Virus record (IMG/VR): IMGVR_UViG_3300045988_182914
Span: 28,339-92,338 of that record
Length of the DNA stretch: 64,000 nucleotides
Strand: one strand, 5' to 3'
Source of the DNA: a virus
Position numbers and translations under genes: made by a program. Every line of letters starts with the position of its first letter. Positions within the stretch are counted from its first letter, which is position 1. Positions 7,054 through 42,568 of the stretch are shown here, one piece after another. The notes below the pieces were generated by a model. It was not told the origin of the DNA. It saw only the letters and a program-made list of their open reading frames with translations, and ran no database searches.

Positions 7054-9174
7054 TTATTCTCCTATCATCTCAAGGAATTCATCCTCAGAAATGATAGGCA
7101 CGCCAAGTTCCTTAGCTTTCTTATTCTTTCCTGATGTACTTTCTACATCATTATTAATAAGATAGCTGGTTTTCTTAGTTACAGAGCCGGTTGCTTTGCC
7201 ACCCAGTTCTTCAATTTTCGTCTGCAATTCTGCACGGTTCTTGAAATGGTTAACTGAGCCGGTGATAACAAATGTCTTGCCGGAAAGAATATTTTTACTA
7301 GCAGGTACATCTGCTTCTGCTGGAACCTCGACATCAATCCATCTGAGCAAGTCATAAACTTCGGCATTGTTTGAGATTCTCCACATCTCATCCAGTAAAT
7401 TCTTCTCAAATGGAATCCATCCAAGATATCTGCTGCCCCAGTCCCAAAGACTGAGCTCAATCTTTTCTCCAATTCCGTCTATGCCTGTAAAACATTTACG
7501 ATTATAGACATCGTTGAAAAACTTCCTGACATCACCTTTGTAGGCCTTGTCAAACAATTTTGCCTGTCCTTTTCCTACCATAGGAATACCAAGCGCATGG
7601 ATAAACGGTACAAATGTTGTCTTACGGCTTCTCTGAATTGATTTCCAAATATTGTCATATGACTTCTGTCCAAAACCATCCATTGCAGCAATGTCACGCT
7701 CAAAAGTATCAAGTCTGTACAGATCTGCAAGCTGCTTAATGAAGCCCTTTTCAATAAATTTCTCAAGGGTTTTCTCTGACAGACCGATAATATCCATGCA
7801 GTCTCTCTCGCAGAAATGTACGAATTTCTTAACCTGCTTTACAGCACAGTTAGGATTTGTACACATCTCTACCTCAACGTCTCTGTCACCAGAATGTGTA
7901 ATCATTGGCGATGTTTCCATGCCACACACCGGACATGTACATGCATGAGACTCAGCGTAAGTAAGCTCATCTCCCGGTGTCATGTTTTTATCGACCTGTG
8001 GAATTATTTTATTACTTTTGAACACTGAAATCTTATCACCAACTCTCAGACGCAGTTTTTTAACGATTGATACATTATGTACGCTCGCTCTTGTAACTGT
8101 AGTTCCCTCAAGCTGTACCGGATCAAAGACTGCAACAGGATTAATACGTCCTGTTCTGCTAGGAGACCATTCAATTTCTCTCAAAGTGGTTTCAACACAC
8201 TCGTCAGCCCACTTGAAAGCAAAGCCTGTGAGCCTGTTAGGATGATGTCCTGTGACAGGAAGCGCGTCAGCAACTCTGTAATCATCCGATGCAACAACAA
8301 GTCCGTCTACAGGATAATCCAGTGTCTCTACTCTATCAGAGAAACTATTCATAACATTGATAATCTGATCCGGTAAATCTGAATCTACATCTGGATTGCT
8401 TGAATAAGCTCTTGCAAGCTCATGTTCAACAACACCAAATCCCAGTCTCTCAAGCAGTGTCAATGCACCAAAGAAAGTTTCAGGTACCTCAATTTTGTCA
8501 TCAGCAGCAGGCTCTATATGCACAAGCTTAAAAGCTTTAAACATAACCTTTCTGCCTCTAAGACCTGGTTCTTTGATTGTTATTGTTGAATTTGCAAGAT
8601 TACGAGGATTTGAATACTCCTCTTCATCCTCTTCCAGATTTGAATTAATTCTTTCAAATTCTGAATAAGTCATGAGAGCTTCACCTCTGGCCACTAATTT
8701 TCCTTTAAAACCAATGGTCATTGGAATACCTTCGATGTATGGTGCCTGATGAGTTATATCACTTCCTACCTCACCATTTCCGCGAGTAACAGACTGTACC
8801 AGACGGCCATTATTGTATTCCAGTACTATAGTACTACCGTCAAGTTTCCACATGACGTTACAGACTCCATCCCAAGACTCAGAAAAGACTTCTGGAAATT
8901 CGTTAATATCCTTTGTCTTATCAAGCGACAGTGCCGGAAACTCATGTTTGACTTTCTTAAGGCCATTTCCGCCAATCTCATCTGCACCAACTTTTTGTGT
9001 TGGGGAATCCGGCAGAATAATCCCTGTCTCTTTCTCAAGCTGTGCAAGCTCATCAAACATTGTATCCCACTCATAATTCGACATGATTTCGTCTTTGCCA
9101 TTATAGTAGGCATCTGATGCCTCATTCAGCTTGTTGATAAGTTTCTCCATGATTTTTACGTTTTCGTTGTTCAT
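7054..9174 (-). CDS. ligA: NAD+-dependent DNA ligase LigA
   Basis: 706 aa. Adenylation motif KLDGSTIV (KxDG), OB fold, Zn-finger CxxC, HhH and C-terminal BRCT, all in canonical LigA order. RBS GGAGGA sits upstream. Confidence 0.95.
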   Translation of the reverse strand: MNNENVKIMEKLINKLNEASDAYYNGKDEIMSNYEWDTMFDELAQLEKETGIILPDSPTQKVGADEIGGNGLKKVKHEFPALSLDKTKDINEFPEVFSESWDGVCNVMWKLDGSTIVLEYNNGRLVQSVTRGNGEVGSDITHQAPYIEGIPMTIGFKGKLVARGEALMTYSEFERINSNLEEDEEEYSNPRNLANSTITIKEPGLRGRKVMFKAFKLVHIEPAADDKIEVPETFFGALTLLERLGFGVVEHELARAYSSNPDVDSDLPDQIINVMNSFSDRVETLDYPVDGLVVASDDYRVADALPVTGHHPNRLTGFAFKWADECVETTLREIEWSPSRTGRINPVAVFDPVQLEGTTVTRASVHNVSIVKKLRLRVGDKISVFKSNKIIPQVDKNMTPGDELTYAESHACTCPVCGMETSPMITHSGDRDVEVEMCTNPNCAVKQVKKFVHFCERDCMDIIGLSEKTLEKFIEKGFIKQLADLYRLDTFERDIAAMDGFGQKSYDNIWKSIQRSRKTTFVPFIHALGIPMVGKGQAKLFDKAYKGDVRKFFNDVYNRKCFTGIDGIGEKIELSLWDWGSRYLGWIPFEKNLLDEMWRISNNAEVYDLLRWIDVEVPAEADVPASKNILSGKTFVITGSVNHFKNRAELQTKIEELGGKATGSVTKKTSYLINNDVESTSGKNKKAKELGVPIISEDEFLEMIGE

Positions 9175-11417: not shown

Positions 11418-12557
11418 TTACTCTGTTGCAACTGTATCAGGTACTTGGCTATCAGAAAGATAGTTTATTCCCATACGATACAGATTCATAGCTCCGATAC
11501 GGTCATCATTGGACTGATAGCCACAGTTTTTACAAGTAAACAAATGTATTTTCTTGTTACGGTTAGACTTTTCCGTATGCCCACAAACAGGACAACATTG
11601 ACTCGTATAACGAGGATCTACCTTAATTACAGAAGATTGATTCTGCTTTGCCTTGTAAATTAGTTTCTGTTCTAAACCATAGAACGACCACGACACAGAA
11701 ACATAACGGTCTTTTGTTTTGACACGCTCTGTAGCATTGCGAATACCCGACAAATCTTCTAATACAAAGAGTGTATGCTTCGGGTTATTCTCAACGAGTG
11801 CCTTCGATACACAATGGTTCACATCTTGCATCCAACGGTTTTCTCGCTGACCGATAGCTTTTAATCTTCGCCTTGAAGATGGAGTTTGTCGCATTTGGAG
11901 TTTTTTGCGAAGTTTGGAATAGTTAGCACGTTTCTGCTTGATAGCTTTTCCACTAACAAATCCAGACTTGTGATGACTGTCATAGGTTGCAACAACGAAG
12001 TTAATTCCTCTGTCAATGCCTACGACATTACAAATGTCAGAAATATTACTTTCTTTGACATCATAAGTTACTGGTATGTGAAGATAATATTTACCATGTT
12101 TGTTTGTGAGCTTGGCTGTACCAAACTTGTAAATAGAATGGTCAAAATATTTAGACATACCTTCAGCGAAATATGGCAGTTTAACACGACCATTCAGCGT
12201 ATTCACAGAAAAACAGTTTTGCGTTAAAGAATAATCTCTGTTCCAAACTAAATCATACTGAGGTTTCTTGAAGGTTGGTCGTATCCATTTATTTTGATTT
12301 TCGAGAATAGCTCTATATCGTGCAATGACCGTTTTCAAAACGGACTGAGCCATTTGCGATTTCAAACCAAATTTTTCTCTTAGAGTAGAATACAAAACTT
12401 TATTCAGTGAAAACTGCTTTAAATCATGAGTCTTGAATACATAGTCTGAAACATAATCACAGGCATCACGATAAACAGACATAGTTTCATCAAGCAAAAC
12501 TTTATCTGCATCAGTAGCGACTATTTGAACTTTTGCTGTTATAGTCATCTGTTCCAT
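11418..12557 (-). CDS. tnpB: TnpB (IS605 OrfB, RuvC-like RNA-guided nuclease)
   Basis: 379 aa. RuvC motifs GIDRG, LEDL and NDDRIGAMNL, plus zinc finger CPVCG...CKNCG. Confidence 0.9.
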   Translation of the reverse strand: MEQMTITAKVQIVATDADKVLLDETMSVYRDACDYVSDYVFKTHDLKQFSLNKVLYSTLREKFGLKSQMAQSVLKTVIARYRAILENQNKWIRPTFKKPQYDLVWNRDYSLTQNCFSVNTLNGRVKLPYFAEGMSKYFDHSIYKFGTAKLTNKHGKYYLHIPVTYDVKESNISDICNVVGIDRGINFVVATYDSHHKSGFVSGKAIKQKRANYSKLRKKLQMRQTPSSRRRLKAIGQRENRWMQDVNHCVSKALVENNPKHTLFVLEDLSGIRNATERVKTKDRYVSVSWSFYGLEQKLIYKAKQNQSSVIKVDPRYTSQCCPVCGHTEKSNRNKKIHLFTCKNCGYQSNDDRIGAMNLYRMGINYLSDSQVPDTVATE

Positions 12558-12640
12558 AGATGTACTCCCTTCATTGATATCTCACTAGATATAGTATATA
12601 ATATTAGTTAGTGAAAGTCAATAATTATCAGAGGTAGGCT

Positions 12641-13045
12641 ATGGACAATAGATATAATCGTCATAACAGACGAAAATACAGTCTAAAAGTACATATAGTT
12701 CTTGTAACTAAATATCGTAAGAAACTACTAAAAGGTTCTATTGCTGACGATGTTAAGCAAAAGATTTTTGATATAGCCAATACTCGTGGCTACGAAATAA
12801 TCGCTATGGAAGCAGACAAAGACCACATGCATTTTTTAATAAGTTATGATACGACTGATAGGGTTTGCGATATTGTTAAGATTGTAAAACAAGAAACACC
12901 ATATTACCTATGGCAAAAGTATGGCTCGTTTCTGTCTAAACAGTATTGGAAGAAAAGGATATTTTGGTCAGACGGATACTTTGCTTGCAGTATTGGAGAA
13001 GTATCGTCAGCGACTATACAAAAGTATATTGAAAGTCAGGGTTAA
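12641..13045 (+). CDS. tnpA: IS200-type TnpA (Y1 HUH transposase)
   Basis: 134 aa. Matches the IS200 family across ...HIVLVTKYRKKLL...HMHFLISY... including the HUH motif. Confidence 0.9.
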   Translation: MDNRYNRHNRRKYSLKVHIVLVTKYRKKLLKGSIADDVKQKIFDIANTRGYEIIAMEADKDHMHFLISYDTTDRVCDIVKIVKQETPYYLWQKYGSFLSKQYWKKRIFWSDGYFACSIGEVSSATIQKYIESQG

Positions 13046-16741: not shown

Positions 16742-16966
16742 TTTCTTTACCTCCCAGATTTGAATTCCGATTAATGCTTACATATAAAGTATGATAGAAA
16801 CAAAAAAAATAACGGTTTTAATGAATTTACTGCGCAAAAAATCTCCTGACAACGTCAGGAGATGAATGCGCTGGATTTATATAGAAGCACATATCAGTAT
16901 GGATAAAAAATCATACTTATATCAGAAAGGCCAGCCTTATAAAACAAACCAGAGGAGGTGAATTCC

Positions 16967-18232
16967 ATGAGACAGATGAATCAGATGCCGTACATTATCG
17001 GCGCGGTAATACGCATATATCCTAGCAATAAACAGAAGCGCATTATCGCCAAAAATGACGGCGCCGCGCGTTTCATATATAACAGGCTTGTTGCCCGCGA
17101 CAGGGAGCTTCACGCCCTTGGAAGGGTCAAAAGATATTGTGAGCCTGTAGCTGCACGCATCTCATATCTTAAATCTCTTGGAACAAACCTCTCGGATTTG
17201 AAGGCTGTATATCCGTTCCTTGAGGATAAGGAAATTGATTCCCTTGCTGTCTGCAATGCAAAACAGAATTACCAGACCGCATGGAACAATTTCATGAAGG
17301 TCCCGGGCACGTCGATACCAACATTCCATAAAAAGGGATATTCAAAATCATACCAGACGAACTGCCAGTATCCTTCGGGATGCACCGACATCAAAAAGGG
17401 GAGTGTACACATGCTTGACCGTAAACATGTTCAGGTTCCAAAGCTGGGTTCTGTCAAGTTTAAGGATTCCGGCATGCTGCGGCGTATTTTTGCCAGAACA
17501 TCCGAAACACGCATAGGCTCAGTAAAAGTTGCAATGGATAACTGCGGCGACTACTGGATCTCCATGCAGGTCGGTTCGGTAGGTCCGCTCCACAATGCAA
17601 TGCCCGCAGTCGGACATGGTGTCGGAATAGATGTAAATGTCAAAAACCTTTACACGGACTCAGACGGAAATGAGGCTGAAAATCCAAAATTCTACACAAA
17701 AACAGAAAAGAAACTTGCCAAGGCACAGCGAAAGCTCTCAAGACGCATGGAGCGTGCCAAAAAAGACGGCAGGTCTTTATATGATGCAAAAAACTACCAG
17801 AAGCAGAGGCTTAAAACTGCAAAAATAAGCAGGTCAGTATCCCGCAGGCGCAAGGATTACCTTAATGTCCAGAGTAAGCGTTTAGTCGAAAGCCAAGACT
17901 TTATATTTACTGAGAACTTAAGCTCCAAAGCCATGATGAAAGATAATGACTATGCCAAATACATAGCTGATGTCGCATGGAGTAAATTCATCACAATGAT
18001 AAAATATAAATGCGGATTCTACGGCCGCATATTCGGCATGGTTCCGGCCAAAAACACCACGCAGATGTGTCATGTGTGCGGATTTATACTTACCGGTGAC
18101 AGTAAGCTCTCATTCAACGACCGTTCGTGGACATGTCCTAACTGCGGCACCTTCCATATGAGGGACCACAACTCTGCCATAAACATAAAAAACAGCGGAA
18201 CCCGGTTGTATTTACCAGATCCCGCTTTATAA
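16967..18232 (+). CDS. tnpB: TnpB (IS1341-type, no adjacent tnpA)
   Basis: RuvC-I GIDVNVKN, E in FTENLSS, RuvC-III RDHNSAINI, zinc finger CHVCG...CPNCG. GGAGG RBS before the ATG at 16967. Confidence 0.9.
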   Translation: MRQMNQMPYIIGAVIRIYPSNKQKRIIAKNDGAARFIYNRLVARDRELHALGRVKRYCEPVAARISYLKSLGTNLSDLKAVYPFLEDKEIDSLAVCNAKQNYQTAWNNFMKVPGTSIPTFHKKGYSKSYQTNCQYPSGCTDIKKGSVHMLDRKHVQVPKLGSVKFKDSGMLRRIFARTSETRIGSVKVAMDNCGDYWISMQVGSVGPLHNAMPAVGHGVGIDVNVKNLYTDSDGNEAENPKFYTKTEKKLAKAQRKLSRRMERAKKDGRSLYDAKNYQKQRLKTAKISRSVSRRRKDYLNVQSKRLVESQDFIFTENLSSKAMMKDNDYAKYIADVAWSKFITMIKYKCGFYGRIFGMVPAKNTTQMCHVCGFILTGDSKLSFNDRSWTCPNCGTFHMRDHNSAINIKNSGTRLYLPDPAL

Positions 18233-19475: not shown

Positions 19476-22400
19476 ATGAATACAGGTTTTAACGATTTCA
19501 CGAATCTTTCATCTGTTACAAAAACATTATGCAACAGACTGATTCCAACAGAAATCACGGCAAAATATATAAAAGAACACGGCGTTATTGAAGCCGATCA
19601 GGAAAGAAACATGATGAGTCAGGAGCTTAAGAATATCTTAAACGACTTTTACAGAAGTTTCTTAAATGAGAACCTTGTAAAAGTTCATGAACTCGATTTT
19701 AAGCCGCTCTTTACAGAAATGAAAAAGTATCTGGAGACAAAGGATAATAAGGAAGCTCTTGAAAAGGCACAGGATGATATGAGAAAAGCCATTCATGATA
19801 TTTTTGAGAGTGATGACAGATACAAAAAGATGTTCAAAGCAGAAATTACTGCTTCCGTCCTGCCGGAGTTTATCCTGCACAACGGAGCCTACTCCGCTGA
19901 GGAAAAAGAGGAGAAAATGCAGGTTGTCAAGATGTTCAACGGCTTTATGACATCATTTTCAGCATTCTTTACGAACAGGGAAAACTGCTTTTCAAAGGAA
20001 AAGATTTCATCATCTGCATGCTACAGAATTGTTGATGACAATGCAAAAATTCATTTTGACAACATCCGCATATACAAAAACATTGCAAACAAATTTGATT
20101 ACGAGCCTGAAATGATTGAGAAGATTGAGGAAGCTGCTGGTGGAGCTGATATTAGGAATATCTTTTCGTACAACTTCAATCATTTTGCCTTCAATCATTT
20201 TGTGTCGCAGGATGATATTTCTTCCTACAACTATGTCGTAAGCGGGATCAACAAGTTTATGAACCTTTACTGTCAGGCTTCAAAGGAGAAGTTTAGCCCG
20301 TACAGGTTAAGACGTCTTCACAAGCAGATACTCTGCATTGAGGAGTCTTTATATGATGTACCTGCAAAGTTCAATTCCGACGAGGATGTATATGCTGCGG
20401 TTAATGATTTTCTTAACAACGTCAGAGCCAAGTCTGTTATTGAAAGACTGCAGATGCTCGGCAAGAATGCTGATAGCTATGACCTTGATAAGATATACAT
20501 TTCAAAGAAGCACTTTACAAATATATCCCAGACACTGTACAGGGATTTCAGTGTAATCAATACTGCTCTTACCATGAGTTACATTGACACTCTCCCGGGC
20601 AAAGGCAAGACCAAAGAGAAAAAGGCTGCATCCATGACTAAAAACACTGAATTAATAAGCCTTGGTGAAATTGATAAACTTGTTGATAAGTATAACTTAT
20701 GTCCGGACAAAGCTGCAAGCACAAGGTCGCTTATAAGAAGCATTTCAGATATTGTCGCTGATTACAAAGCAAATCCGTTAACTATGAATTCCGGCATTCC
20801 GCTCGCAGAAAATGAGACTGAAATCGCTGTTCTTAAGGAAGCAATTGAACCGTTTATGGACATCTTTCGCTGGTGTGCAAAGTTCAAGACAGATGAGCCT
20901 GTTGACAAGGATACGGATTTTTACACAGAACTTGAGGATATAAACGATGAGATCCATTCTATTGTATCCTTATACAACCGTACAAGAAATTACGTAACCA
21001 AGAAACCGTACAACACAGACAAGTTCGGATTGTATTTTGGCACGTCTTCATTTGCATCAGGTTGGAGTGAAAGCAAGGAATTCACCAACAATGCCATTCT
21101 TCTTGCAAAAGATGACAAATTTTATCTTGGAGTGTTCAATGCCAAAAACAAACCTGCAAAAAGTATTATCAAAGGACATGATACGATGCAGGACGGTGAT
21201 TACAAGAAAATGGTCTACTCTCTTTTAACCGGACCTAACAAGATGCTGCCTCACATGTTTATAAGCTCAAGCAAGGCTGTACCGGTTTACGGACTGACAG
21301 ATGAGCTGCTTTCTGATTACAAGAAAGGCAGACATCTTAAGACGTCAAAAAACTTTGACATAGACTACTGTCACAAACTGATTGATTACTTTAAGCACTG
21401 TCTCGCACTGTATACTGACTGGGACTGCTTTAATTTTAAGTTCTCAGATACCGAAAGTTACAATGACATTGGTGAGTTCTACAAGGAAGTTGCCGAACAG
21501 GGATATTACATGAACTGGACATACATTGGAAGCGATGATATTGACAGTCTGCAGGAAAATGGCCAGCTGTATCTGTTTCAGATATACAATAAAGACTTTT
21601 CAGAAAAGAGCTTCGGAAAACCAAGTAAGCACACTGCTATTCTACGCAGTTTATTCAGTGATGAAAATGTTGCAGATCCTGTTATCAAGTTATGCGGCGG
21701 CACAGAAGCATTCTTCAGGCCAAAGAGCATAAAAACTCCTGTCGTTCACAAGAAAGGTTCTGTTCTTGTCAGCAAGACCTACAACGCACAGGAAATGGAT
21801 GAAAATGGAAACATTATTACTGTCAGAAAATGCGTGCCTGATGATGTTTACATGGAGCTTTACGGCTACTACAACAATTCAGGAACACCTCTTTCAGCAG
21901 AGGCGCTTAAGTACAAGGATATTGTAGACCACCGCACTGCCCCTTATGACATTATAAAAGACCACAGATATACAGAGGATGAGTTCTTTATCAACATGCC
22001 GGTGTCACTAAACTACAAGGCGGAAAACAGACGTGTAAATGTAAACGAAATGGCTCTTAAGTATATTGCTCAGACAAAGGACACTTACATCATTGGAATT
22101 GACCGTGGGGAGAGAAATTTGCTGTATGTATCAGTAATTGATACTGACGGAAACATTGTTGAGCAGAAATCCCTTAACATCATTAACAATGTGGACTATC
22201 AGGCAAAGCTCAAGCAGGTTGAAATCATGAGAAAACTGGCAAGGCAGAACTGGAAACAGGGTGTAAAAATAGCTGACTTAAAGAAAGGCTATTTGTCACA
22301 GGCAGTTCATGAAGTTGCCGAGCTTGTAATAAAATACAATGGTATTGTTGTCATGGAAGACTTAAACAGCAGGTTTAAGGAAAAGCGTTCAAAGATTGAG

Positions 22401-23267
22401 CGCGGGGTTTACCAGCAGTTTGAGACAAGCCTCATTAAGACTCTCAACTATCTGACATTCAAGGACAGAAAACCTCTGGAAGCAGGCGGAATTGCCAATG
22501 GTTATCAGCTTACATACATTCCGGAAAGCCTTAAAAATGTCGGAAGCCAGTGTGGATGCATTCTCTATGTGCCAGCCGCATATACATCAAGGGTTGATCC
22601 GACAACAGGATTTGTATCCTTATTCAAGTTCAGAGACATATCGTCTGAAAAAGTCAAGACGGATTTCATTGGCAGATTTGACTGCATCAGATATGATGCC
22701 GAGAAAGATTTGTTTGCATTTGAGTTTGATTACGATAATTTTGAGACATACGAGACCTGTGCAAAAACAAAATGGCGTGCATACACTTACGGCACCAGAG
22801 TTAAAAAGACGTTTCGAAACAGAAAGTTCGTTAGCGAAGTCATTATCGACATAACAGAGGAAATCAAGAAAACTCTTACTACCACAGACATAAACTGGAC
22901 AGATGGTCATGACATCAAACAGGAAATTATTGACTATGCACTCTCCTCTCACATATTTGAGATGTTCAAACTCACAGTGCAGATGAGAAACAGCTTATGT
23001 GAGTCGAAAGACAGAGAATATGATAAGTTTGTGTCTCCGATATTAAACGCGTCAGGAAAGTTCTTTGACACGGACGCTGCTGACAAATCGCTTCCTATCG
23101 AAGCAGATGCTAATGACGCATATGGTATCGCAATGAAAGGCTTATACAATGTACTTCAGGTGAAGAACAATTGGACCGAGGGCGAGAAATTTAAGTTTAG
23201 CAGACTCAGCAATGAAGACTGGTTTAGTTTCATGCAAAACCGTGCAGAAAAGACAGTAAACAAATAG
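19476..23267 (+). CDS. cas12a: Cas12a (Cpf1), type V-A effector, apparently catalytically intact
   Basis: 1263 aa. N terminus FTNLSSVTKTLCNRLIP. RuvC-I IGIDRGERNLLYVSVID, RuvC-II VVMEDLN, RuvC-III ADANDAYGIAMKG, Nuc QMRNS...SPILNASGKFFDTD. Confidence 0.97.
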   Translation: MNTGFNDFTNLSSVTKTLCNRLIPTEITAKYIKEHGVIEADQERNMMSQELKNILNDFYRSFLNENLVKVHELDFKPLFTEMKKYLETKDNKEALEKAQDDMRKAIHDIFESDDRYKKMFKAEITASVLPEFILHNGAYSAEEKEEKMQVVKMFNGFMTSFSAFFTNRENCFSKEKISSSACYRIVDDNAKIHFDNIRIYKNIANKFDYEPEMIEKIEEAAGGADIRNIFSYNFNHFAFNHFVSQDDISSYNYVVSGINKFMNLYCQASKEKFSPYRLRRLHKQILCIEESLYDVPAKFNSDEDVYAAVNDFLNNVRAKSVIERLQMLGKNADSYDLDKIYISKKHFTNISQTLYRDFSVINTALTMSYIDTLPGKGKTKEKKAASMTKNTELISLGEIDKLVDKYNLCPDKAASTRSLIRSISDIVADYKANPLTMNSGIPLAENETEIAVLKEAIEPFMDIFRWCAKFKTDEPVDKDTDFYTELEDINDEIHSIVSLYNRTRNYVTKKPYNTDKFGLYFGTSSFASGWSESKEFTNNAILLAKDDKFYLGVFNAKNKPAKSIIKGHDTMQDGDYKKMVYSLLTGPNKMLPHMFISSSKAVPVYGLTDELLSDYKKGRHLKTSKNFDIDYCHKLIDYFKHCLALYTDWDCFNFKFSDTESYNDIGEFYKEVAEQGYYMNWTYIGSDDIDSLQENGQLYLFQIYNKDFSEKSFGKPSKHTAILRSLFSDENVADPVIKLCGGTEAFFRPKSIKTPVVHKKGSVLVSKTYNAQEMDENGNIITVRKCVPDDVYMELYGYYNNSGTPLSAEALKYKDIVDHRTAPYDIIKDHRYTEDEFFINMPVSLNYKAENRRVNVNEMALKYIAQTKDTYIIGIDRGERNLLYVSVIDTDGNIVEQKSLNIINNVDYQAKLKQVEIMRKLARQNWKQGVKIADLKKGYLSQAVHEVAELVIKYNGIVVMEDLNSRFKEKRSKIERGVYQQFETSLIKTLNYLTFKDRKPLEAGGIANGYQLTYIPESLKNVGSQCGCILYVPAAYTSRVDPTTGFVSLFKFRDISSEKVKTDFIGRFDCIRYDAEKDLFAFEFDYDNFETYETCAKTKWRAYTYGTRVKKTFRNRKFVSEVIIDITEEIKKTLTTTDINWTDGHDIKQEIIDYALSSHIFEMFKLTVQMRNSLCESKDREYDKFVSPILNASGKFFDTDAADKSLPIEADANDAYGIAMKGLYNVLQVKNNWTEGEKFKFSRLSNEDWFSFMQNRAEKTVNK

Positions 23268-23398
23268 CTAGTGCAGACCGCAACTTGAATAAAAGGAAAT
23301 GCTTACAGTTCAATGGTACAAGGTAACAAATTAAGGACATAATGCATAAAAAGCTTACAGTTCAACCGTAAAATGTTGTGCAAGTGCACAATGTTAGG

Positions 23399-24095
23399 GT
23401 TGATACTGTGAGCGAAATGTCTACTAAGGTAGATTTCATCTATGTACTCGATTGCATACTTTGTTGATACTGTGAGCGAAATGTCTACTAAGGTAGATCA
23501 TGCGTTAACACACATATCAATTACGGTTGAAACTGTAAGCGGAATGTCTACTGGGGTAGATCTGCAATGGGTGAAAAAACATCCTCTAGTCGAAACTGTA
23601 AGCGAAATGTCTACTAGGGTAGATGATAGTCAAGATGATATCACAGTCATTGTTGAAACTGTAAGCGGAATATCTACTAGGGTAGATACAAAAAATATCT
23701 TTAATTTCTTCATCAGGTTGAAACTGTAAGCGGAATGTCTACTAGGGTAGATATATACTCTATAAGCTTATCTGATCCACGTTGAAACTGTAAGCGGAAT
23801 ATCTACTAGGGTAGATTTGATGATGCCACTATGGTTGAAAATGTTGAAACTGTAAGCGGAATGTCTACTTGGGTAGATACTATGATAATCATATGGACAC
23901 TGTGAGTTGAAACTATAAAGGAAATGTCTACTGAGGTAGATTTTCTCTTATTTTTTTAATTTGAATAAAGCTGAAACTGTAGGCAAAATGTCTACTGATG
24001 TAGATTATTCCCAGCATACCAAATAAAATATTTACTGATATAGATATATAGATAACTCAATTGAAGCTGTTAGCGAAATATCTATTAAAACAGAT
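23399..24095 (+). CRISPR. CRISPR array 1 (type V-A repeats, about 10 good plus 2 degenerate repeats, 26-29 nt spacers), leader at about 23340..23398
   Basis: 36 nt repeats ending AATGTCTAC-NNNN-GTAGAT (the Cas12a 3' handle hairpin). The array degenerates toward its 3' end. Confidence 0.95.
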
Positions 24096-24171
24096 CAGAT
24101 CAACAGTATAAGATGATGATAAAAAGCCTACAGCTCAGCCGTGAAATGTTGTACAAGTGCGTAATGTTAGG

Positions 24172-24986
24172 ATTGATACTGTGAGCAGAATGTCTACTAA
24201 GGTAGATCCTTTGACCATCTATTCTTCATGTTTGGTTGATACTGTAAGCGGAATGTCTACTTGTGCAGATGAGTTGCAGACGAATGGTTCTTTGCGTGTT
24301 GAAGCTGTAAGGAAAATGTCTACTGGTGTAGATATCATTTTGAATATCTTCCTTTCCTATGTTAAAACTGTAAGCGGAATGTCTACTGAAGTAGATCCTC
24401 TACCTTTTATCATTCGTTTTAATGTTGAAACTGTAACTATCCTTATCGGTCTGTAAATTCAATGTTGAAACTGTAAAGAAAATGTCTACTAGGGTAGATT
24501 GTACATCACTTGTAAAAGATGTAGGTTGAAACTGTAAGCAGAATGTCTACTAAGGTAGATATGAAATATTGTCCAGTGCTGTCTTCATTGGAACTGTTGG
24601 CGAAATGTCTACTAAGGTAGATCAGCTGAATTAATGGTTCCGTATTATCGCTGAGATTGTAAAGTGAAATGTCTACTGGTGTAGATTGATTATTACATCT
24701 CATAACCGTTCTGGTTGGGACTGTGAGCCAAATGTCTACTGGTGTAGATTATGTAGATGAGCAAAGAAACTCTCAGAAGGGCAGCGTTGATACTGTGAGC
24801 GGAATGTCTACTGGTGTAGATTCATTTTTTCATACGCATAATCAGAAAAGGTGAGTTGTGAGCAAAATGTCTACTGAGGTAGATTTCACAGAGAGTATGA
24901 TTTTTATTTGTTGAAACTGTAAAGAAAATGTCTACTGAGGTAGACGTGTAGATCACGGGTAGCAATATTTACTTGAAACTGTAAGG
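24172..24986 (+). CRISPR. CRISPR array 2 (about 13 repeats, one internally truncated at 24424..24437, last one truncated), own leader copy at 24121..24171
   Basis: Same repeat family. Leader about 85% identical to the array 1 leader. Confidence 0.9.
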
Positions 24987-24999
24987 AGGTAAATAAGGT

Positions 25000-25734
25000 A
25001 TGAATAAACTTAAAAACATGAATAAGAAAAAATCGTTTTGGAGTACATTAGTTAATGAATTCCTTGGAACTATTTTAATAACTTCTATTATAATTTATAT
25101 GATTGTGTTTATATTATTAGGAAGAGCTGGAATATTTAATTTTATGGGAGGTAGCAGTGATATAATAAACGGATTAGTTGCAGCAGCAGCCTTCCCAATT
25201 GTATTGGTCCTTGCATTATGTACAATAGTATTAATTATAAATATAGTAGCGTTTATTCCGCTTACTATACATAAAATTAAGGCCGTATATAATTACACCT
25301 ATCTTCCGCTTACCGCGGACGAGATTAAATATGCTTTGGATAAAAATATTATATCTTCTAAAGAAGATTATATTAAATTAATTTTGGATAATCTGCGTTA
25401 TGGAGTTACTAATAAACCATCTTTGTTTGAGTTTTTCTTTTCCACATGTTACATAACGTTCTCTCAAGAAGAGTTATATTCATTATGCAAAGCTTTTGAG
25501 AAAGTGTTTGATAGTCCGATTATAATTGATGATGATATGCTTTCATATCTTAATAAGTATGATACCAATTGTTCTCCTTTTGATGTAGCAAAATATAAAG
25601 ATGAAGTTTCGCTTACAACTATAAGGGAAGAATATGAAAATGGGAAAGATGCTACATTTGCGTTATACACGGATGGAGATAAATATAAAGAAATATTAGA
25701 AACAGTTGATTTCCCATTATATGTGGGCAAATAA
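25000..25734 (+). CDS. Hypothetical membrane protein (2 TM helices plus soluble domain) embedded between CRISPR arrays 2 and 3
   Basis: 244 aa, AT-rich. Its RBS aaggagg begins within the truncated terminal repeat of array 2. Confidence 0.6.
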   Translation: MNKLKNMNKKKSFWSTLVNEFLGTILITSIIIYMIVFILLGRAGIFNFMGGSSDIINGLVAAAAFPIVLVLALCTIVLIINIVAFIPLTIHKIKAVYNYTYLPLTADEIKYALDKNIISSKEDYIKLILDNLRYGVTNKPSLFEFFFSTCYITFSQEELYSLCKAFEKVFDSPIIIDDDMLSYLNKYDTNCSPFDVAKYKDEVSLTTIREEYENGKDATFALYTDGDKYKEILETVDFPLYVGK

Positions 25735-25865
25735 TTTCATTTTTCAAAAAACAGGTCCTATCCGTAATTAATACTGTAGAGAAAAATATTTTTTGAAGTA
25801 GAACGCAATATATAAAAAACATTACAGTTAAACCGTGAAACATTGTGCAGGTGCACAATGTTAGG

Positions 25866-26956
25866 GTTAAAACTGTAAGGGAAACGTCTACTGATGTAAA
25901 TGAAACCAAAGCTCCAGACTTAATGCATGTTAAAGTTGCGAACAGAATGTCTACTGGTGTAGATGAGTTGCAGACGAATGGTTCTTTGCATGTTGAAGCT
26001 GTAATAGAAATGTCTACCTAGGCAGATGCAGTCCCTGGAGATGTGAAGAAAGCGGTTAAATCCGTGAATAAAATGTCTACTGGTGTAGATAGTATTGTTG
26101 TTTTAATCATTTAGAGTTGAACCTGTAAGGAAAATGTCTACTGAGGTAGATATCATTGGGAATATCCCCTCCTTCTTTCGTTGAAACTGTAAAGAAAATG
26201 TTTACTGATGTAGATACCAGAAGTTTTATTATTGATTTAAATGTTGATACTGTGAGCGGAATGTCTACTGGTGTAGATTCATTTTTTCATACGCATGATT
26301 AGAAAAGTTGAGTTGTGAGCAAAATGTCTACTAAGGTAGATTCTGATAGTTTATATAGCGCAAGTGCGGTTGAAACTGTAAAGAAAACGTCTACTAGGGT
26401 AGATATGAAATATTGTCCAGCGCTGTCTTCATTGGAACTGTTGGCGAAATGTCTACTGGGGTAGATGCAATGAGTTTCTCCGGTAATTCATTCCAGATTA
26501 AAATTGCTAAAAAATGTCTACTTGTGTAGATTCATAGAGAGTGTGTTTTTATTTCTGGCTGAAGCTGTGAGCGAAATATCTACTGGGGTAGATGCCTGTC
26601 TCGTTAATCATGTTGGCTATAGTTGAAGCTGTAAATCAAAATGTAGATGAAAAACACTCAGAGAAAATCCGGAAAGATTGAGACTCTAAAAATATCTGCG
26701 AGTGCAGATTTCAGAACCGCAAGAACCGCCAAACAAAACTGTGGCCGAAATGTCTACTGGTGTAGATACAAAAGTCGCGGGGGTTCCCAAGGAGTTAAGG
26801 TTGTAAGCGAAATGTCTACTGAGGTAGATTTAATCTAGAATCAGATATTGAAAAACATTGAAGTCGCAGGTGAAATGTCTACTAGCGTAGATTTAATGAC
26901 AGATATGCATGTTGAAACTGTGAGCGGAATGTCTACTGAAACATACTAATGTAGAT
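25866..26956 (+). CRISPR. CRISPR array 3 (about 18 repeats, many degenerate), third leader copy at 25812..25865
   Basis: Same repeat family. Shares at least 3 spacers in the same order with array 2. Terminal repeat has a 10 nt insertion in the handle loop. Confidence 0.9.
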
Positions 26957-27075
26957 ACAAATATCAGTGTTGCTACATGCGCAAATCATTCGCTTTTCAA
27001 CATACAAACCATCGCTTAGACGCAAAAAAAAGAGCCGCATCATGCAGCTCTTCTTTTTTACTTATATTTTTGTTC

Positions 27076-38274: not shown

Positions 38275-38283
38275 GAAACACAT

Positions 38284-38356
38284 GTATCATTAGCTCAGCT
38301 GGCAGAGCACTCGACTTTTAATCGAGCTGTCCGGGGTTCAAGTCCCCGATGGTACA
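38284..38356 (+). tRNA. tRNA-Lys (anticodon TTT)
   Basis: Manual cloverleaf fold. Acceptor GTATCAT/ATGGTAC, anticodon loop CTTTTAA, T-arm CGGGG-TTCAAGT-CCCCG. Confidence 0.8.
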
Positions 38357-38377
38357 TTACCGGCGGGTATAACATGA

Positions 38378-38458
38378 GGATAGGTATGCAAGTGGTTAAA
38401 TCGGGCAGACTGTAAATCTGTTGCTTCGGCTTCGTTGGTTCGAATCCAACCCTATCCA
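38378..38458 (+). tRNA. tRNA-Tyr (anticodon GTA), long variable arm
   Basis: Acceptor GGATAGG/CCTATCC, anticodon loop CTGTAAA, T-arm GTTGG-TTCGAAT-CCAAC. Confidence 0.8.
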
Positions 38459-38559
38459 CTAAGAAATTTCTTTTATTCAAGTCCTGCCCCGCCGACTTAA
38501 TTTTAAAACAAAGGAGATGATTTATAAATGATTGCAGACTTTAAAACTAATTTCATCAG

Positions 38560-38631
38560 GCTCTCGTAGCTCAGAGGTAGAGTACTTGGTTGAAGCCCAA
38601 GGGGTCGAAAGCTCAAAACTTTCCGGGAGCA
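38560..38631 (+). tRNA. Atypical tRNA-like gene, possibly tRNA-Phe (GAA), with non-canonical T-loop CTCAAAA
   Basis: Acceptor GCTCTCG/CGGGAGC (one G-U), anticodon loop TTGAAGC. The T-loop lacks the TTC motif, so it could be a pseudo-tRNA. Confidence 0.4.
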
Positions 38632-38635
38632 TTAT

Positions 38636-38719
38636 GGAGTGTTGGCTCAATTGGTACAGCAACTGTCTTGAAAACAGTCATTCCGAAAGGATATCTGAGT
38701 TCGAATCTCAGGCACTCCG
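38636..38719 (+). tRNA. tRNA-Ser (anticodon TGA), class II
   Basis: Anticodon arm ACTGT-CTTGAAA-ACAGT, long variable arm, T-arm CTGAG-TTCGAAT-CTCAG. Confidence 0.8.
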
Positions 38720-38748
38720 CTATATTAAAAAAACAATTTATATATTAT

Positions 38749-38834
38749 GCAGTGTTGGCAGAGTAGGTAATGCGCCGGATTGCTAATCCGAGGTCATCTT
38801 AACGGATGCAGGGGTTCGAGTCCCTTACGCTGCG
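38749..38834 (+). tRNA. tRNA-Ser (anticodon GCT), class II
   Basis: Anticodon loop TTGCTAA, long variable arm, T-loop TTCGAGT, acceptor GCAGTGT/ACGCTGC. Confidence 0.7.
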
Positions 38835-38898
38835 CTGTGTTAGTAGCTTAGGAGGTTTAATATCGTCAAATCCCGTCTAGCACCTTATATCTTATAAT

Positions 38899-38970
38899 GA
38901 TGATGTAGCCAAGAGGAAAAGGCATTAGTCTGCAAAACTAATATCGTGGGTTCAAATCCCATCATCATCT
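38899..38970 (+). tRNA. tRNA-Cys (anticodon GCA)
   Basis: Acceptor GATGATG/CATCATC, anticodon arm TTAGT-CTGCAAA-ACTAA, T-arm GTGGG-TTCAAAT-CCCAT. Confidence 0.75.
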
Positions 38971-39004
38971 CTCGAATATAATTCTCTTATTTACCACACT
39001 ATAT

Positions 39005-39983: not shown

Positions 39984-40733
39984 TTATATTTCGCAAATGC
40001 CGGGCTCGTACTTTGCAACCGGATTCAGCTTAAATTCATTGGCCAGATGTTTCTGCTTAATCACCTCGTCAATTTCTTTATCTTCGCAGGTCTCATTGCG
40101 AATAAAGGTATCCAGCTGCTCATACGTAAATCCAAAATTGTCTTCATCTGTCTTTCCACATAAACCGTCTGACGGTGTTTTGTCAACATACTTAGACGGC
40201 AGGCCAAGACAATGTCCAATGGCACAGACTTCAGACTTTGTCAAATATCCTAAAGGAGCCACATCCCCATCACCATCGCCGCCTATCGTAAAATAGCCGA
40301 CATAATCTTCAGAATAATTACATGTGTTAATCATTCTGCCATTATTACACTGACAGACTGCTCTTATCATCTTTGTACGTTCTCTTGGCGCAATATTCTG
40401 CCTGCACTGCTTCGTAATCTCGATTCCACAGTCCTGCAGCTGCTTGAAACTGGCCTCAAGTGCTGATCTTATGTTAATAGTATAGTTTCTGATACCCAAG
40501 AGCCTGCATACTTCAATAGAATCATTAATGTCTGACTGTTCTCCATCCGGCAGCATTACGCCGATGACCCTGTCTGCTCCGAGGGCCTTTACGCACAATG
40601 CCGCTGCTATTGTACTGTCCTTGCCGCCTGAAATGCCCAGTACGGCATTACAGCCTTTCCCATTTTCATCAAACCAGTCCTTAATCCATTTGATAAGATT
40701 TTCTGTCTGCTGTGCTGCATTGAAATTATACAT
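39984..40733 (-). CDS. nadE: NH3-dependent NAD+ synthetase NadE
   Basis: 249 aa. PP-loop GISGGKDS. Overall similarity to the NadE family. Confidence 0.88.
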   Translation of the reverse strand: MYNFNAAQQTENLIKWIKDWFDENGKGCNAVLGISGGKDSTIAAALCVKALGADRVIGVMLPDGEQSDINDSIEVCRLLGIRNYTINIRSALEASFKQLQDCGIEITKQCRQNIAPRERTKMIRAVCQCNNGRMINTCNYSEDYVGYFTIGGDGDGDVAPLGYLTKSEVCAIGHCLGLPSKYVDKTPSDGLCGKTDEDNFGFTYEQLDTFIRNETCEDKEIDEVIKQKHLANEFKLNPVAKYEPGICEI

Positions 40734-40734
40734 A

Positions 40735-41952: not shown

Positions 41953-42013
41953 GTATTCTCCTCCTTATTCTTACGTTATCAGTATGTCAGAAACCTTTTT
42001 GATAAATGGCTTT

Positions 42014-42556
42014 CTATATAATATTTACCTGAATCATCTTCATTGCTTCTATTGCTGTCTTATGACTTTCAGGCGTTACGCAGGCACAGGCATTTTCTAT
42101 CACGAACACCTCTGCATCTTTACAGAACGTCTTTGCAATCGCTACGTTGCTGATTACACATATTCCTGTGCAGAATCCGCAGAAATAAATCTCTGTATCG
42201 CTGTTGTCATATCCCGCAAGCAGTTCGCCAAGCTCTTTGCTGCCAAACGTCGGCTTGTCAATATAAGTAATATCGTCACAATTAACTCCACGCTCCTTCA
42301 TTGCATCTTTAAGACGAGCGTCTACTTCCCATCCGTTTGTCCCTTTAATACAGTGCACTACCGGAAGTTTCTTTCCTTCCTGAGTATTCAGATAGTTTTC
42401 ATCATGCGTATCCCTTGTGAATATCACGTCATCATATTTTCCTGACCTGATTTCATCTGCAATAACATTTGTCGCCACGTTACACTCCTTGTTTCCAAGA
42501 ACTCCTGTAATAAAATCATTCTGCGCATCCACTACTACTAAAATTTTCTTTGCCAT
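42014..42556 (-). CDS. pncA: Isochorismatase-family hydrolase, most likely nicotinamidase PncA
   Basis: 180 aa. VVVDAQNDF (Asp), conserved Lys in YIDKPTFG, Cys in FCGFCTGICV. Assignment as nicotinamidase is supported by operon context. Confidence 0.75.
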   Translation of the reverse strand: MAKKILVVVDAQNDFITGVLGNKECNVATNVIADEIRSGKYDDVIFTRDTHDENYLNTQEGKKLPVVHCIKGTNGWEVDARLKDAMKERGVNCDDITYIDKPTFGSKELGELLAGYDNSDTEIYFCGFCTGICVISNVAIAKTFCKDAEVFVIENACACVTPESHKTAIEAMKMIQVNII

Positions 42557-42568
42557 AATTATTTCCTC

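What the first reader, a model, noticed from the sequence alone, without database searches (positions are those of the whole stretch)
24972..25734. A membrane-protein gene is inserted inside the CRISPR locus and takes its RBS from a truncated repeat
Array 2 ends in a partial repeat CTTGAAACTGTAAGG. This runs directly into AGGTAAATAAGGT-ATG of a 244 aa AT-rich protein with two TM helices and a soluble domain (25000..25734). The third leader and array follow immediately. A protein gene sitting between arrays and transcribed with them is unusual. It may be a regulator or accessory factor of the Cas12a system, an anti-defence or superinfection-exclusion gene expressed from the array promoter, or simply an insertion.
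Basis: seen in the sequence. Interest (0 to 1): 0.65.

Follow-up and report, generated by a model that had tools for sequence, protein, structure and literature searches.

The report
Membrane-protein gene lodged between Cas12a arrays
A real, conserved gene for a small membrane protein of unknown function sits in a spacer-like slot between two working Cas12a CRISPR arrays of a giant phage-like element from the human gut, most likely as captured cargo read out on the CRISPR transcript and not as a proven part of the CRISPR machinery.

Summary
Array 2 ends in the partial repeat CTTGAAACTGTAAGG (24972-24986). This abuts AGGTAAATAAGGT-ATG of a 244-aa ORF (25000-25734). A decayed repeat, leader 3 and array 3 follow.

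The ORF is a real gene: more than 125 homologues, dN/dS 0.2-0.33, two TM helices and a cytoplasmic α/β domain modelled at pLDDT 82. It matches no Pfam, PHROG, PADLOC, NCBIfam, PDB or BFVD entry.

The Shine-Dalgarno core GGAGG(A/T)AAAT belongs to the gene, because homologues with no repeat nearby also have it. The truncated repeat only abuts it.

The arrays work. The crRNA handle is 98% conserved, new spacers appear at the leader ends between strains, and one spacer matches another virus 27/27 next to a TTTA PAM.

The gene is intact at this position in every contig with the identical Cas12a that reaches far enough. Relatives in four other neighbourhoods still carry repeat remnants directly upstream, so gene and repeats move together.

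I found no promoter or terminator between array 2, the ORF and array 3, so co-transcription with pre-crRNA is likely but only inferred. No spacer targets the gene or its control regions, which argues against a CreTA-like circuit. The protein's function is unresolved. Interest is moderate.

The parts
19476..23267 (+). cas12a (1263 aa)
   Evidence: Pfam REC1, REC2, PI, RuvC and Nuc domains, E values from 1e-29 to 1e-89. Closest solved structures are ReChb and LbCas12a.
23346..23398 (+). leader 1
   Evidence: 53-nt motif found three times in the window and only at CRISPR units (family D8; nhmmer).
23399..24095 (+). array 1 (about 11 repeats, the last ones decayed)
   Evidence: Spacers are gained at the leader end between strains.
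24119..24172 (+). leader 2
   Evidence: family D8.
24173..24945 (+). array 2. Its first spacer (24208-24234) matches another virus. An internal truncated repeat lies at 24424-24437.
   Evidence: Protospacer 27/27 with a TTTA PAM in IMGVR_UViG_3300045988_131681.
24910..24953 (+). aberrant terminal repeat of array 2 (GTAGAC, followed by a duplicated GTGTAGAT)
   Evidence: Sequence read. Identical in L007 and L008. Predicted to form an extended hairpin.
24972..24986 (+). truncated repeat: the 5' 15 nt only, with the crRNA handle missing
   Evidence: Homologous to AAATTGCAGGG in L018 and AAGCTGCAGGG in L039.
24985..24989 (+). Shine-Dalgarno GGAGG, the gene's own, overlapping the truncated repeat by 2 nt
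   Evidence: GGAGG(A/T)AAAT is conserved upstream of homologues with and without repeats.
25000..25734 (+). 244-aa gene for a 2-TM protein with a cytoplasmic alpha/beta domain, from an uncharacterised family
   Evidence: 125 homologues. dN/dS 0.2-0.33. AF2 pLDDT 81.6. Distant family at 20-30% identity. No hit in any library.
25767..25803 (+). decayed full-length repeat downstream of the gene (stem destroyed)
   Evidence: family D10; alignment. The same feature lies after the gene in L018 and L039.
25813..25865 (+). leader 3, containing the 11-bp palindrome AACATTGTGCA/TGCACAATGTT
   Evidence: pair I16.
25866..26956 (+). array 3 (about 16 repeats). It shares diverged spacers with array 2.
   Evidence: L007 and L008 carry extra spacers at the leader end.
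27024..27060 (+). intrinsic terminator-like hairpin with a U-run: the first one on the + strand after leader 1
   Evidence: Fold of -11.9 kcal/mol, z = -2.8. No + strand terminator between 23200 and 27000.

Best explanation
The 244-aa ORF is a real, conserved accessory gene of a family of roughly 230-580-kb phage-like elements from the human gut. An ancestor captured it at the trailer end of a Cas12a array, so that it now occupies a spacer-like slot.

The layout is: terminal repeat, 26-nt spacer, truncated repeat, the gene's own SD and ORF, decayed repeat, leader 3, array 3. The capture was probably by recombination at or between repeats, not by transposition.

In the window's lineage the gene has no recognisable promoter or terminator. 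I therefore infer that it is transcribed from the upstream CRISPR leader(s) as part of the pre-crRNA. Cas12a's own RNase would cut at the last intact handle (24927-24945) and so define the 5' end of the mRNA. Transcription would then run on into array 3 and stop at the terminator near 27040.

The repeat next to the gene has lost its handle. Cas12a therefore cannot load the gene's 5' UTR as a guide or block its ribosome-binding site.

The protein is predicted to be N-in/C-in, with two TM helices and a cytoplasmic domain of about 150 aa whose fold is unmatched. It is cargo, comparable to a moron gene. It is possibly a membrane-level exclusion or defence-related factor expressed together with the anti-virus crRNAs. 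It is not a demonstrated Cas12a cofactor.

What is shown: the gene is real, the layout is conserved, the arrays are active, and gene and repeats are physically linked. What is inferred: co-transcription, processing by Cas12a, and the protein's role.
For: The gene is real. It has 125 homologues at 55-99% identity and a distant family at 20-30% identity. dN/dS is 0.22-0.33 in all pairs. The AF2 model has pLDDT 81.6.

The position is stable. The gene is intact and in the same place in all five contigs with the identical Cas12a that reach far enough, and in relatives 89% identical.

The SD is the gene's own.

Gene and repeats are linked. Repeat remnants lie directly upstream of the gene in four other neighbourhoods: L001 (context B), L018 and L039 (context E), and L034 (context G). 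In L001 and L018 they are the only repeats in about 20 kb.

The junction between truncated repeat and SD is shared by the window and by L018/L039. The sequence gene, decayed repeat, leader, array is also shared.

Truncated repeats occur elsewhere in the array, at 24424. No inverted terminal repeats, target duplication or transposase flank the gene.

No + strand terminator and no above-chance promoter lies between 23200 and 27000, and a terminator lies at 27024-27060.

The arrays are functional. The handle is 98% conserved, against 76% for the discarded 5' part of the repeat. Spacers are gained at the leader ends. One spacer has a 27/27 protospacer with a TTTA PAM.
Against: No transcript data exist, and the promoter scan is a crude sigma-70 consensus. 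In relatives the elements use a distinctive promoter, TTGGACAAA-N14-TATTATAT. That promoter is not seen at the window's leaders, so the real promoters here are unknown. A cryptic promoter upstream of the ORF cannot be excluded.

The persistent linkage of the gene with repeats across rearrangements could reflect function and not mere hitch-hiking.

The protein's role is a guess. No homology or fold match supports an exclusion or defence role.

In clade C (68-74% identity) the gene lies outside the array and converges on it. In contexts D and F no repeats are near. The position inside the array is therefore not essential to the family.
Confidence: 0.55

Rival explanations
1. Cas12a-gated gene. 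The repeat in the 5' UTR acts in cis as a switch. Cas12a binds or cuts the handle and holds the following 20-24 nt, which include the SD and the start codon, as a pseudo-guide. The membrane protein, acting as a toxin, abortive-infection or exclusion effector, is then made only when Cas12a is absent, titrated or inhibited. This would be a guard or addiction module analogous to CreTA/CrePA.
For: In L018 and L039 a near-intact handle (AAAATGTCTACTAGCGCAGAT, one mismatch) lies 20 nt upstream of the ATG and downstream of a canonical element promoter. The same GCAGAT variant occurs in working array repeats of the window. Repeat remnants accompany the gene in four further contexts. The product is a small membrane protein. 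A precedent exists for CRISPR-repressed protein toxins (10.1101/2024.01.05.574328).
Against: In the window's lineage, the most abundant one (441 contigs), the handle next to the gene is deleted. In L001 and L034 the handles are decayed with broken stems. By contrast, array handles are 98% conserved, so I see no sign of selection for Cas12a binding at this site. No spacer shows PAM-flanked partial complementarity to the gene, the leaders or the cas12a upstream region. The protein is 244 aa with a conserved soluble domain, unlike small toxins. Homologues in contexts C, D and F lack any upstream repeat.
Confidence: 0.12
2. Dedicated accessory of the type V-A system. The membrane protein takes part in interference, spacer acquisition or regulation of this Cas12a.
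For: The gene lies within about 1-4 kb of cas12a arrays in clades A and C, across dS of about 0.6-0.7. It lies between arrays or mini-arrays in both A and E. The arrays acquire spacers although no cas1, cas2 or cas4 was found in the window.
Against: Close homologues (79-80% identity) lie more than 10 kb from any cas12a. The gene's orientation relative to the array differs between clades. The family is unknown from any other Cas12a locus: only one hit among 185,579 GTDB species genomes and none in IMG/VR. It has no nucleic-acid-related domain or fold.
Confidence: 0.08
3. Unrelated passenger with independent expression. The gene happens to lie in a hypervariable region littered with leader and repeat units. 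It has its own unrecognised promoter, and its nearness to the arrays has no consequence.
For: The region next to the array in relatives is dense with scattered leader and single-repeat units. The gene's G+C (28%) differs from the arrays. The gene is found in many different neighbourhoods (contexts A-G).
Against: In L001 and L018 the only repeats in about 20 kb are those touching this gene. There is no room for a promoter between the repeat remnant and the SD (0-20 nt). In L001 and L018 the promoter lies upstream of the repeat, so the repeat is transcribed with the gene. No terminator separates the gene from leader 3.
Confidence: 0.25

Closest known systems
Type V-A (Cas12a) CRISPR loci carried by mobile elements or huge phages without an adaptation module
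   Same: A Cas12a effector. 36-nt repeats with a 3' UCUACU-N3-GUAGAU handle. A TTTA PAM. Spacers aimed at another virus. No cas1, cas2 or cas4 next to the effector.
   Different: Three tandem leader-plus-array units with very loose 5' repeat halves. Polarised spacer gain despite no adaptation genes in view. A protein gene sitting in a spacer-like slot between arrays.
CreTA / CrePA (CRISPR-repressed toxin-antitoxin; 10.1101/2024.01.05.574328)
   Same: A non-cas gene physically embedded in a CRISPR-Cas locus next to repeat-like sequences. The logic of coupling a potentially harmful product to effector activity would fit the L018-type layout.
   Different: No crRNA-like guide with PAM-flanked partial match to the gene's promoter. 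The gene lies between arrays and not between cas genes. The product is a 244-aa 2-TM protein, not an RNA toxin or a KilAC domain. Any control would act in cis on the mRNA, and the handle is lost in the window.
V-A CreR and viral Cracr crRNA-like RNAs (single psi-repeat, psi-spacer, terminator; 10.1101/2024.10.29.618823)
   Same: Single repeat-like units with an intact Cas12a handle outside the main array occur in relatives of this element (L011, L017, L022, L005). They also occur upstream of this gene in L018 and L039.
   Different: Here each unit has its own CRISPR leader motif or sits in the 5' UTR of protein-coding operons. No terminator follows it, and no match to a cas12a promoter was found. 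The element carries its own cas12a and does not hijack a host's.
Racr solitary repeat units (PMC10651486)
   Same: Isolated CRISPR-repeat mimics on a virus-like element.
   Different: The repeats are those of the element's own arrays. They are followed by guides or genes, and in the window the unit next to the gene lacks the handle altogether.
Mobile-element insertions into CRISPR arrays (IS elements; Tn7-like transposons that target repeats, PMC11837452)
   Same: Foreign protein-coding DNA interrupts an array at a repeat.
   Different: No transposase, no terminal inverted repeats and no target duplication. The homologous segment is just the SD and ORF plus 7 nt.
Synthetic Cas12a arrays embedded in mRNAs (for example PMC9943656; Campa et al. 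2019, cited from memory)
   Same: The inferred arrangement, crRNAs and an mRNA on one transcript separated by Cas12a's RNase, is what engineers built.
   Different: This would be a natural instance. It rests on architecture only, with no RNA data.

Membership tests
Type V-A CRISPR-Cas locus | Cas12a effector with REC, PI, RuvC and Nuc domains | tested here: met
   Pfam hits with E from 1e-29 to 1e-89. PDB Cas12a matches with E down to 1e-228.
Type V-A CRISPR-Cas locus | Direct repeats whose 3' end forms the UCUAC/GUAGA handle, at about 62-64-nt spacing | tested here: met
   38 repeats. Handle 98% conserved. Spacing 61-65 nt.
Type V-A CRISPR-Cas locus | Protospacers flanked by a 5' TTTV PAM | tested here: met
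   One protospacer found, 27/27 with TTTA. n = 1 only; two other spacers had no exact hit.
Type V-A CRISPR-Cas locus | Adjacent cas4-cas1-cas2 adaptation genes | tested here: not met
   None among about 45 window ORFs scanned with Pfam or PHROGs. Many MGE-borne systems lack them. Spacer gain is nevertheless seen.
CreTA / CrePA CRISPR-repressed toxin module | crRNA-like guide with at least 9-10 PAM-proximal nt matching the toxin promoter next to a PAM | tested here: not met
   No such match near the ORF, the leaders or the cas12a upstream region.
CreTA / CrePA CRISPR-repressed toxin module | Product toxic when derepressed | not testable with these tools
   Needs expression assays.
CreTA / CrePA CRISPR-repressed toxin module | Located within or between cas genes beside a degenerate mini-array | tested here: inconclusive
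   Repeat remnants flank the gene, but it lies between full arrays and not between cas genes.
Racr / Cracr viral repeat mimics | Solitary repeat unit on an element that lacks the cognate cas genes and mimics a host system | tested here: not met
   The element encodes its own cas12a, and the repeats equal its own array repeats.
Transposon or IS insertion in an array | Transposase and terminal repeats or target duplication bounding the insert | tested here: not met
   No transposase in 24987-25812. No terminal inverted or direct repeats. The TnpB genes lie upstream of cas12a.
Anti-CRISPR (Acr) / Aca operon | Small soluble inhibitor, usually with an HTH aca gene | tested here: not met
   Predicted integral membrane protein. 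No HTH neighbour. No PADLOC, Pfam or PHROG hit.
Phage superinfection-exclusion membrane proteins | Membrane localisation | tested here: met
   Two hydrophobic helices, N-terminus with net charge +4, prediction only.
Phage superinfection-exclusion membrane proteins | Homology to a known Sie/Imm/Ltp family, or block of DNA entry | tested here: not met
   No PHROG, BFVD or PDB match. The phenotype itself cannot be tested here.

The most novel reading that the evidence does not exclude
In this family of giant gut elements, CRISPR repeats may do double duty as a scaffold for expressing and shuffling protein genes. Genes would sit in spacer-like slots or directly behind single repeats in operon 5' UTRs. 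Cas12a's RNase would separate crRNAs from mRNAs on shared transcripts. Where the handle next to the gene is intact (L018/L039 type), Cas12a would hold the SD and start codon as a pseudo-guide, so that the membrane protein is translated only when Cas12a is missing or inhibited. That would be a cis-acting, post-transcriptional guard of the CRISPR system.
Probability: 0.1. Interest if true: 0.8.

Novelty: new variant of a known kind. Interest (0 to 1): 0.45.

Why it matters
If the inferred co-transcription is real, this is a natural case of an mRNA and crRNAs sharing one transcript that Cas12a itself resolves. So far that design is known mainly from engineering.

The recurrent travel of the gene with repeat remnants also suggests that CRISPR repeats can act as recombination handles. 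Such handles could move cargo genes around a genome.

The locus also shows an MGE-borne Cas12a system with several leaders, leader-end spacer gain without visible adaptation genes, and a spacer against another virus. This bears on how giant elements compete with other viruses.

The protein belongs to an unannotated family with an unmatched fold, so any phenotype would be new information.

Tried and rejected
- More loci. IMG/VR has no relative of the gene. GTDB species genomes have a single small contig.
- Self-targeting or regulatory spacers. I searched for full and seed-plus-PAM matches of all 38 guides in the window. Only chance-level 9-14-mers turned up.
- Transposon-type insertion. Rejected: no terminal repeats, no target duplication, no transposase.
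- 'RBS donated by the repeat'. Rejected after comparing upstream regions in seven contexts.
- My first idea, that the truncated repeat arose recently in the window's lineage by a deletion between two TAAG motifs. I dropped the 'recent' part, because L018 and L039 share the same truncated-repeat/SD junction.
- Targets of the single-repeat units in relatives. Two guides had no exact hit in IMG/VR.
- Literature. Searches for a described element of this kind, or for genes inside Cas12a arrays, found nothing specific.

Full report
**1. What is in the sequence**

The window carries a cas12a gene (19476-23267, 1263 aa) with all the Cas12a Pfam domains. Three tandem units follow directly, each a 53-nt leader plus an array:
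- leader 1 at 23346-23398, array 1 to about 24095;
- leader 2 at 24119-24172, array 2 to 24945;
- leader 3 at 25813-25865, array 3 to about 26956.

I count 38 repeats. The 3' crRNA handle AAUGUCUACU-N3-GUAGAU is 98% conserved. The 5' part of the repeat, which processing discards, is 76% conserved, and the loop 56%. That is the pattern expected if selection acts on the crRNA.

Array 2 ends with three odd features:
- an aberrant repeat, GTAGAC followed by a duplicated GTGTAGAT;
- a 26-nt spacer-like stretch;
- the partial repeat CTTGAAACTGTAAGG at 24972-24986.

This partial repeat abuts AGGTAAATAAGGT and the ATG at 25000 of a 244-aa ORF that ends at 25734.

After the stop come 32 nt, a decayed full-length repeat (about 25767-25803) and then leader 3.

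**2. The ORF is a real gene of an unknown family**
- It has 125 homologues at 55-99% identity, on contigs of up to 577 kb from human gut metagenomes.
- A profile search finds a wider family at 20-30% identity. Its members share the N-terminal KKKSF, two hydrophobic helices and the motif KIKAIxRYxYLPLTxDE.
- Pairwise dN/dS is 0.22-0.33.
- With the deep alignment AlphaFold gives pLDDT 81.6 and pTM 0.77. The model has helices 13-42 and 54-99 followed by an α/β domain.
- Hydropathy and charge (N-terminus +4) predict an N-in/C-in topology.
- G+C is 28-30%, against 35-41% around it.

**3. The surrounding element and the CRISPR system**

The window also holds:
- six tRNA genes;
- an NAD-dependent ligase, an NAD-salvage cluster, BspA-type LRR proteins and a protein like a type IV coupling protein;
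- two TnpB genes.

No cas1, cas2 or cas4 was found among about 45 ORFs scanned.

Relatives are contigs of 230-580 kb, full of small unannotated ORFs with occasional YopX, GP17, Thg1 and PARG hits. Two GenBank 'Bacteriophage sp.' fragments from human faeces belong to the same kind of element. IMG/VR has no relative of the ORF, and GTDB species genomes have one small contig. I call it a giant phage-like element. Whether it is a phage or a plasmid is not settled.

The CRISPR system looks active. Strains with the identical Cas12a differ by extra spacers at the leader end of array 1. Relatives 89% identical carry two or seven extra spacers at the leader-3 end of array 3. The first spacer of array 2 matches a 29.7-kb IMG/VR virus 27/27, directly after a TTTA PAM. 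Arrays 2 and 3 share several diverged spacers, so part of the array was duplicated.

**4. The gene in related loci**

I call the window's own arrangement context A and the six other neighbourhoods contexts B-G.

- **A.** Window, L007, L008, L023-L032. The order is Cas12a, arrays, truncated repeat, ORF, decayed repeat, leader, array. The gene is intact in every contig that reaches far enough.
- **B.** L001-L006, 79% identity. No cas12a within 10 kb. The gene is preceded by an element promoter and two decayed repeats. They are the only repeats in 20 kb. The cassette is flanked by a duplication of about 60 bp of a neighbouring gene's start.
- **C.** L011-L014, L017, L022, 68-74% identity. The gene lies 1-2 kb beyond the trailer end of the Cas12a array, convergent with it, with no repeat directly upstream and a terminator after it. 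In L011 and L017 its three-gene operon is itself headed by promoter, leader and a single repeat.
- **D.** L015, 55% identity. No repeats nearby.
- **E.** L018, L019, L039, 78-80% identity. No cas12a within 10 kb in L018/L019 (L039 was fetched with only 3-kb flanks). The order is promoter, hairpin, one or two repeats with a near-intact handle, truncated repeat, SD and ORF, decayed repeat, decayed leader, mini-array.
- **F.** L020, L021, L036, L037, 79-80% identity. No repeats nearby.
- **G.** L034, L035, 82% identity. A decayed full-length repeat, then 28 nt, then the SD and ORF, then a terminator.

On a protein tree, contexts A, B, E, F and G form one clade and C forms its sister clade.

DNA homology between the window and L001 covers only 24982-25741, that is, the SD, the ORF and 7 nt more.

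**5. What this says about the junction and the RBS**

The SD core GGAGG(A/T)AAAT is present upstream of the gene with or without repeats. There are two types:
- type 1, GGAGGAAAATTTT(T/G)ATG, in contexts C, F and G;
- type 2, GGAGGTAAATGATG, in contexts A, B and E.

The repeat therefore does not donate the RBS. It abuts it with a 2-nt overlap.

MAFFT aligns the window's AAACTGTAAGG with AAATTGCAGGG in L018 and AAGCTGCAGGG in L039, both directly before AGGTAAATG. The junction of handle-less repeat and SD is therefore shared by lineages A and E and is old.

No transposase, inverted terminal repeats or target duplication bound the gene. Another truncated repeat sits inside array 2 at 24424. Recombination or deletion at repeats is the simplest origin.

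**6. How it most likely works**

Between leader 1 and 27000 the + strand shows no terminator-like site, and promoter-like sites are no more frequent than in shuffled sequence. A hairpin with a U-run lies at 27024-27060.

I infer that the gene is transcribed from the CRISPR leader(s) as part of the pre-crRNA. Cas12a would cut at the last handle and so set the mRNA 5' end. The transcript would continue into array 3.

The repeat next to the gene lacks the handle, so Cas12a cannot take the 5' UTR as a guide.

In L001 and L018 the promoter clearly lies upstream of the repeat remnant. There the repeat is part of the gene's 5' UTR. This supports the view that this gene is normally expressed on a CRISPR-type transcript.

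The protein's role is unknown. A membrane-anchored cytoplasmic domain expressed together with anti-virus crRNAs fits an exclusion or defence-related cargo, but that is a guess. I put about 0.2 on any defence or exclusion role.

**7. Rivals**

*Cas12a-gated gene.* A CreTA/CrePA-like guard acting in cis is attractive for the L018 type, where a one-mismatch handle sits 20 nt before the ATG. Several points argue against it:
- the handle next to the gene is deleted in the window's abundant lineage and decayed in L001 and L034, whereas array handles are 98% conserved;
- no spacer has a PAM-flanked seed match to the gene, the leaders or the cas12a upstream region.

*Dedicated Cas12a accessory.* This is weakened by close homologues lying more than 10 kb from cas12a and by the family's absence from other Cas12a loci.

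*Fully independent passenger.* This is weakened by the gene and the repeats travelling together.

**8. Comparison with what is known**

The locus is a type V-A system by effector, repeat and PAM, and it lacks adjacent adaptation genes.

The single-repeat units in relatives resemble the V-A CreR and viral Cracr RNAs described in 10.1101/2024.10.29.618823. They differ in having their own leader motif and in sitting in operon 5' UTRs.

Insertion of transposons into arrays is known (PMC11837452), but this gene has no transposition features.

I found no described case of a conserved non-transposon protein gene occupying a spacer-like slot between active Cas12a arrays. The searchable library is incomplete, so this is not proof of absence.

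**9. Verdict**

- Observation: confirmed.
- Interpretation: partly supported.
- Novelty: a new architectural variant of a known kind of locus, carrying a gene of an uncharacterised family.
- Interest: moderate (0.45).
- The gated-translation or 'repeats as gene scaffold' reading is not excluded (about 0.1) and would be considerably more interesting if true.

Noticed in passing
window 23399-24095 and 25866-26956, compared with L007, L008, L024, L025, L028, L032: Strains differ by extra spacers exactly at the leader ends of arrays 1 and 3. This polarised acquisition occurs although no cas1, cas2 or cas4 was found in the window. The adaptation genes must lie elsewhere in the element or be supplied by the host.
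   Followed up: partly
window 24208-24234; L038 4578-4604 (minus strand): The leader-proximal spacer of array 2 matches IMGVR_UViG_3300045988_131681 (29.7 kb) 27/27, directly after a TTTA PAM. The element's Cas12a therefore targets another virus.
   Followed up: yes
window 24271-24297 / 25965-25991; 24561-24586 / 26405-26430; 24822-24848 / 26279-26305: Arrays 2 and 3 share diverged copies of the same spacers, in partly different order. This indicates segmental duplication and recombination of array segments.
   Followed up: partly
L011 6120-6540, 8711-8830, 8956-9101; L017 1000-1640 and 3247-3600; L022 6353-6640; L005 20224-20332: Relatives carry scattered units of promoter, leader motif and a single repeat with an intact handle. 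They often lie at the head of protein-coding operons, on the strand opposite the main array. They resemble V-A CreR/Cracr crRNA-like units. Their targets are unknown.
   Followed up: partly
L001 5376, 9836, 14728, 19128; L011 993, 6120, 6893, 8956, 18619(-); many other loci; window 45766(-): A distinctive conserved promoter-like element, TTGGACAAA-N14-TATTATAT, precedes many genes of these elements, including cas12a in L011. It is nearly absent from the window.
   Followed up: partly
L011 8475-8493, inside called ORF 8329-8697: A perfect Cas12a handle lies inside a called protein-coding ORF (reading MSTKVD). Either the ORF is spurious or a repeat has been incorporated into a gene.
   Followed up: no
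window 24927-24953: The terminal repeat of array 2 has GTAGAC followed by a duplicated GTGTAGAT, conserved in L007 and L008. It is predicted to form an extended 8-bp hairpin just upstream of the gene.
   Followed up: partly
window 25839-25862 (also in leaders 1 and 2): The leader contains a palindrome, perfect over 11 bp in leader 3 (AACATTGTGCA/TGCACAATGTT). It may be a protein-binding or integration-anchoring site.
   Followed up: no
window 38283-38971 and 39984-44023: A cluster of six tRNA genes lies next to an NAD-salvage set (NAD synthetase, NAPRTase, NUDIX-NMNAT fusion). This may be a counter-measure to NAD-depleting host defences.
   Followed up: no
window 11418-13045 and 16958-18232: Two TnpB genes lie upstream of cas12a. 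One has an adjacent IS200-type Y1 transposase, per the L023 gene table. The region between TnpB and cas12a replaces the canonical promoter seen in relatives.
   Followed up: no
L009 1-600: One relative has the gene preceded by unrelated DNA from position -14 upward, yet still followed by leader 3 and array 3. This variant has no arrays 1-2 or cas12a within the 585 nt available.
   Followed up: no
L018 9465-9860: Three short promoter-to-terminator units, possibly small-RNA genes, lie just upstream of the repeat-ORF cassette.
   Followed up: no
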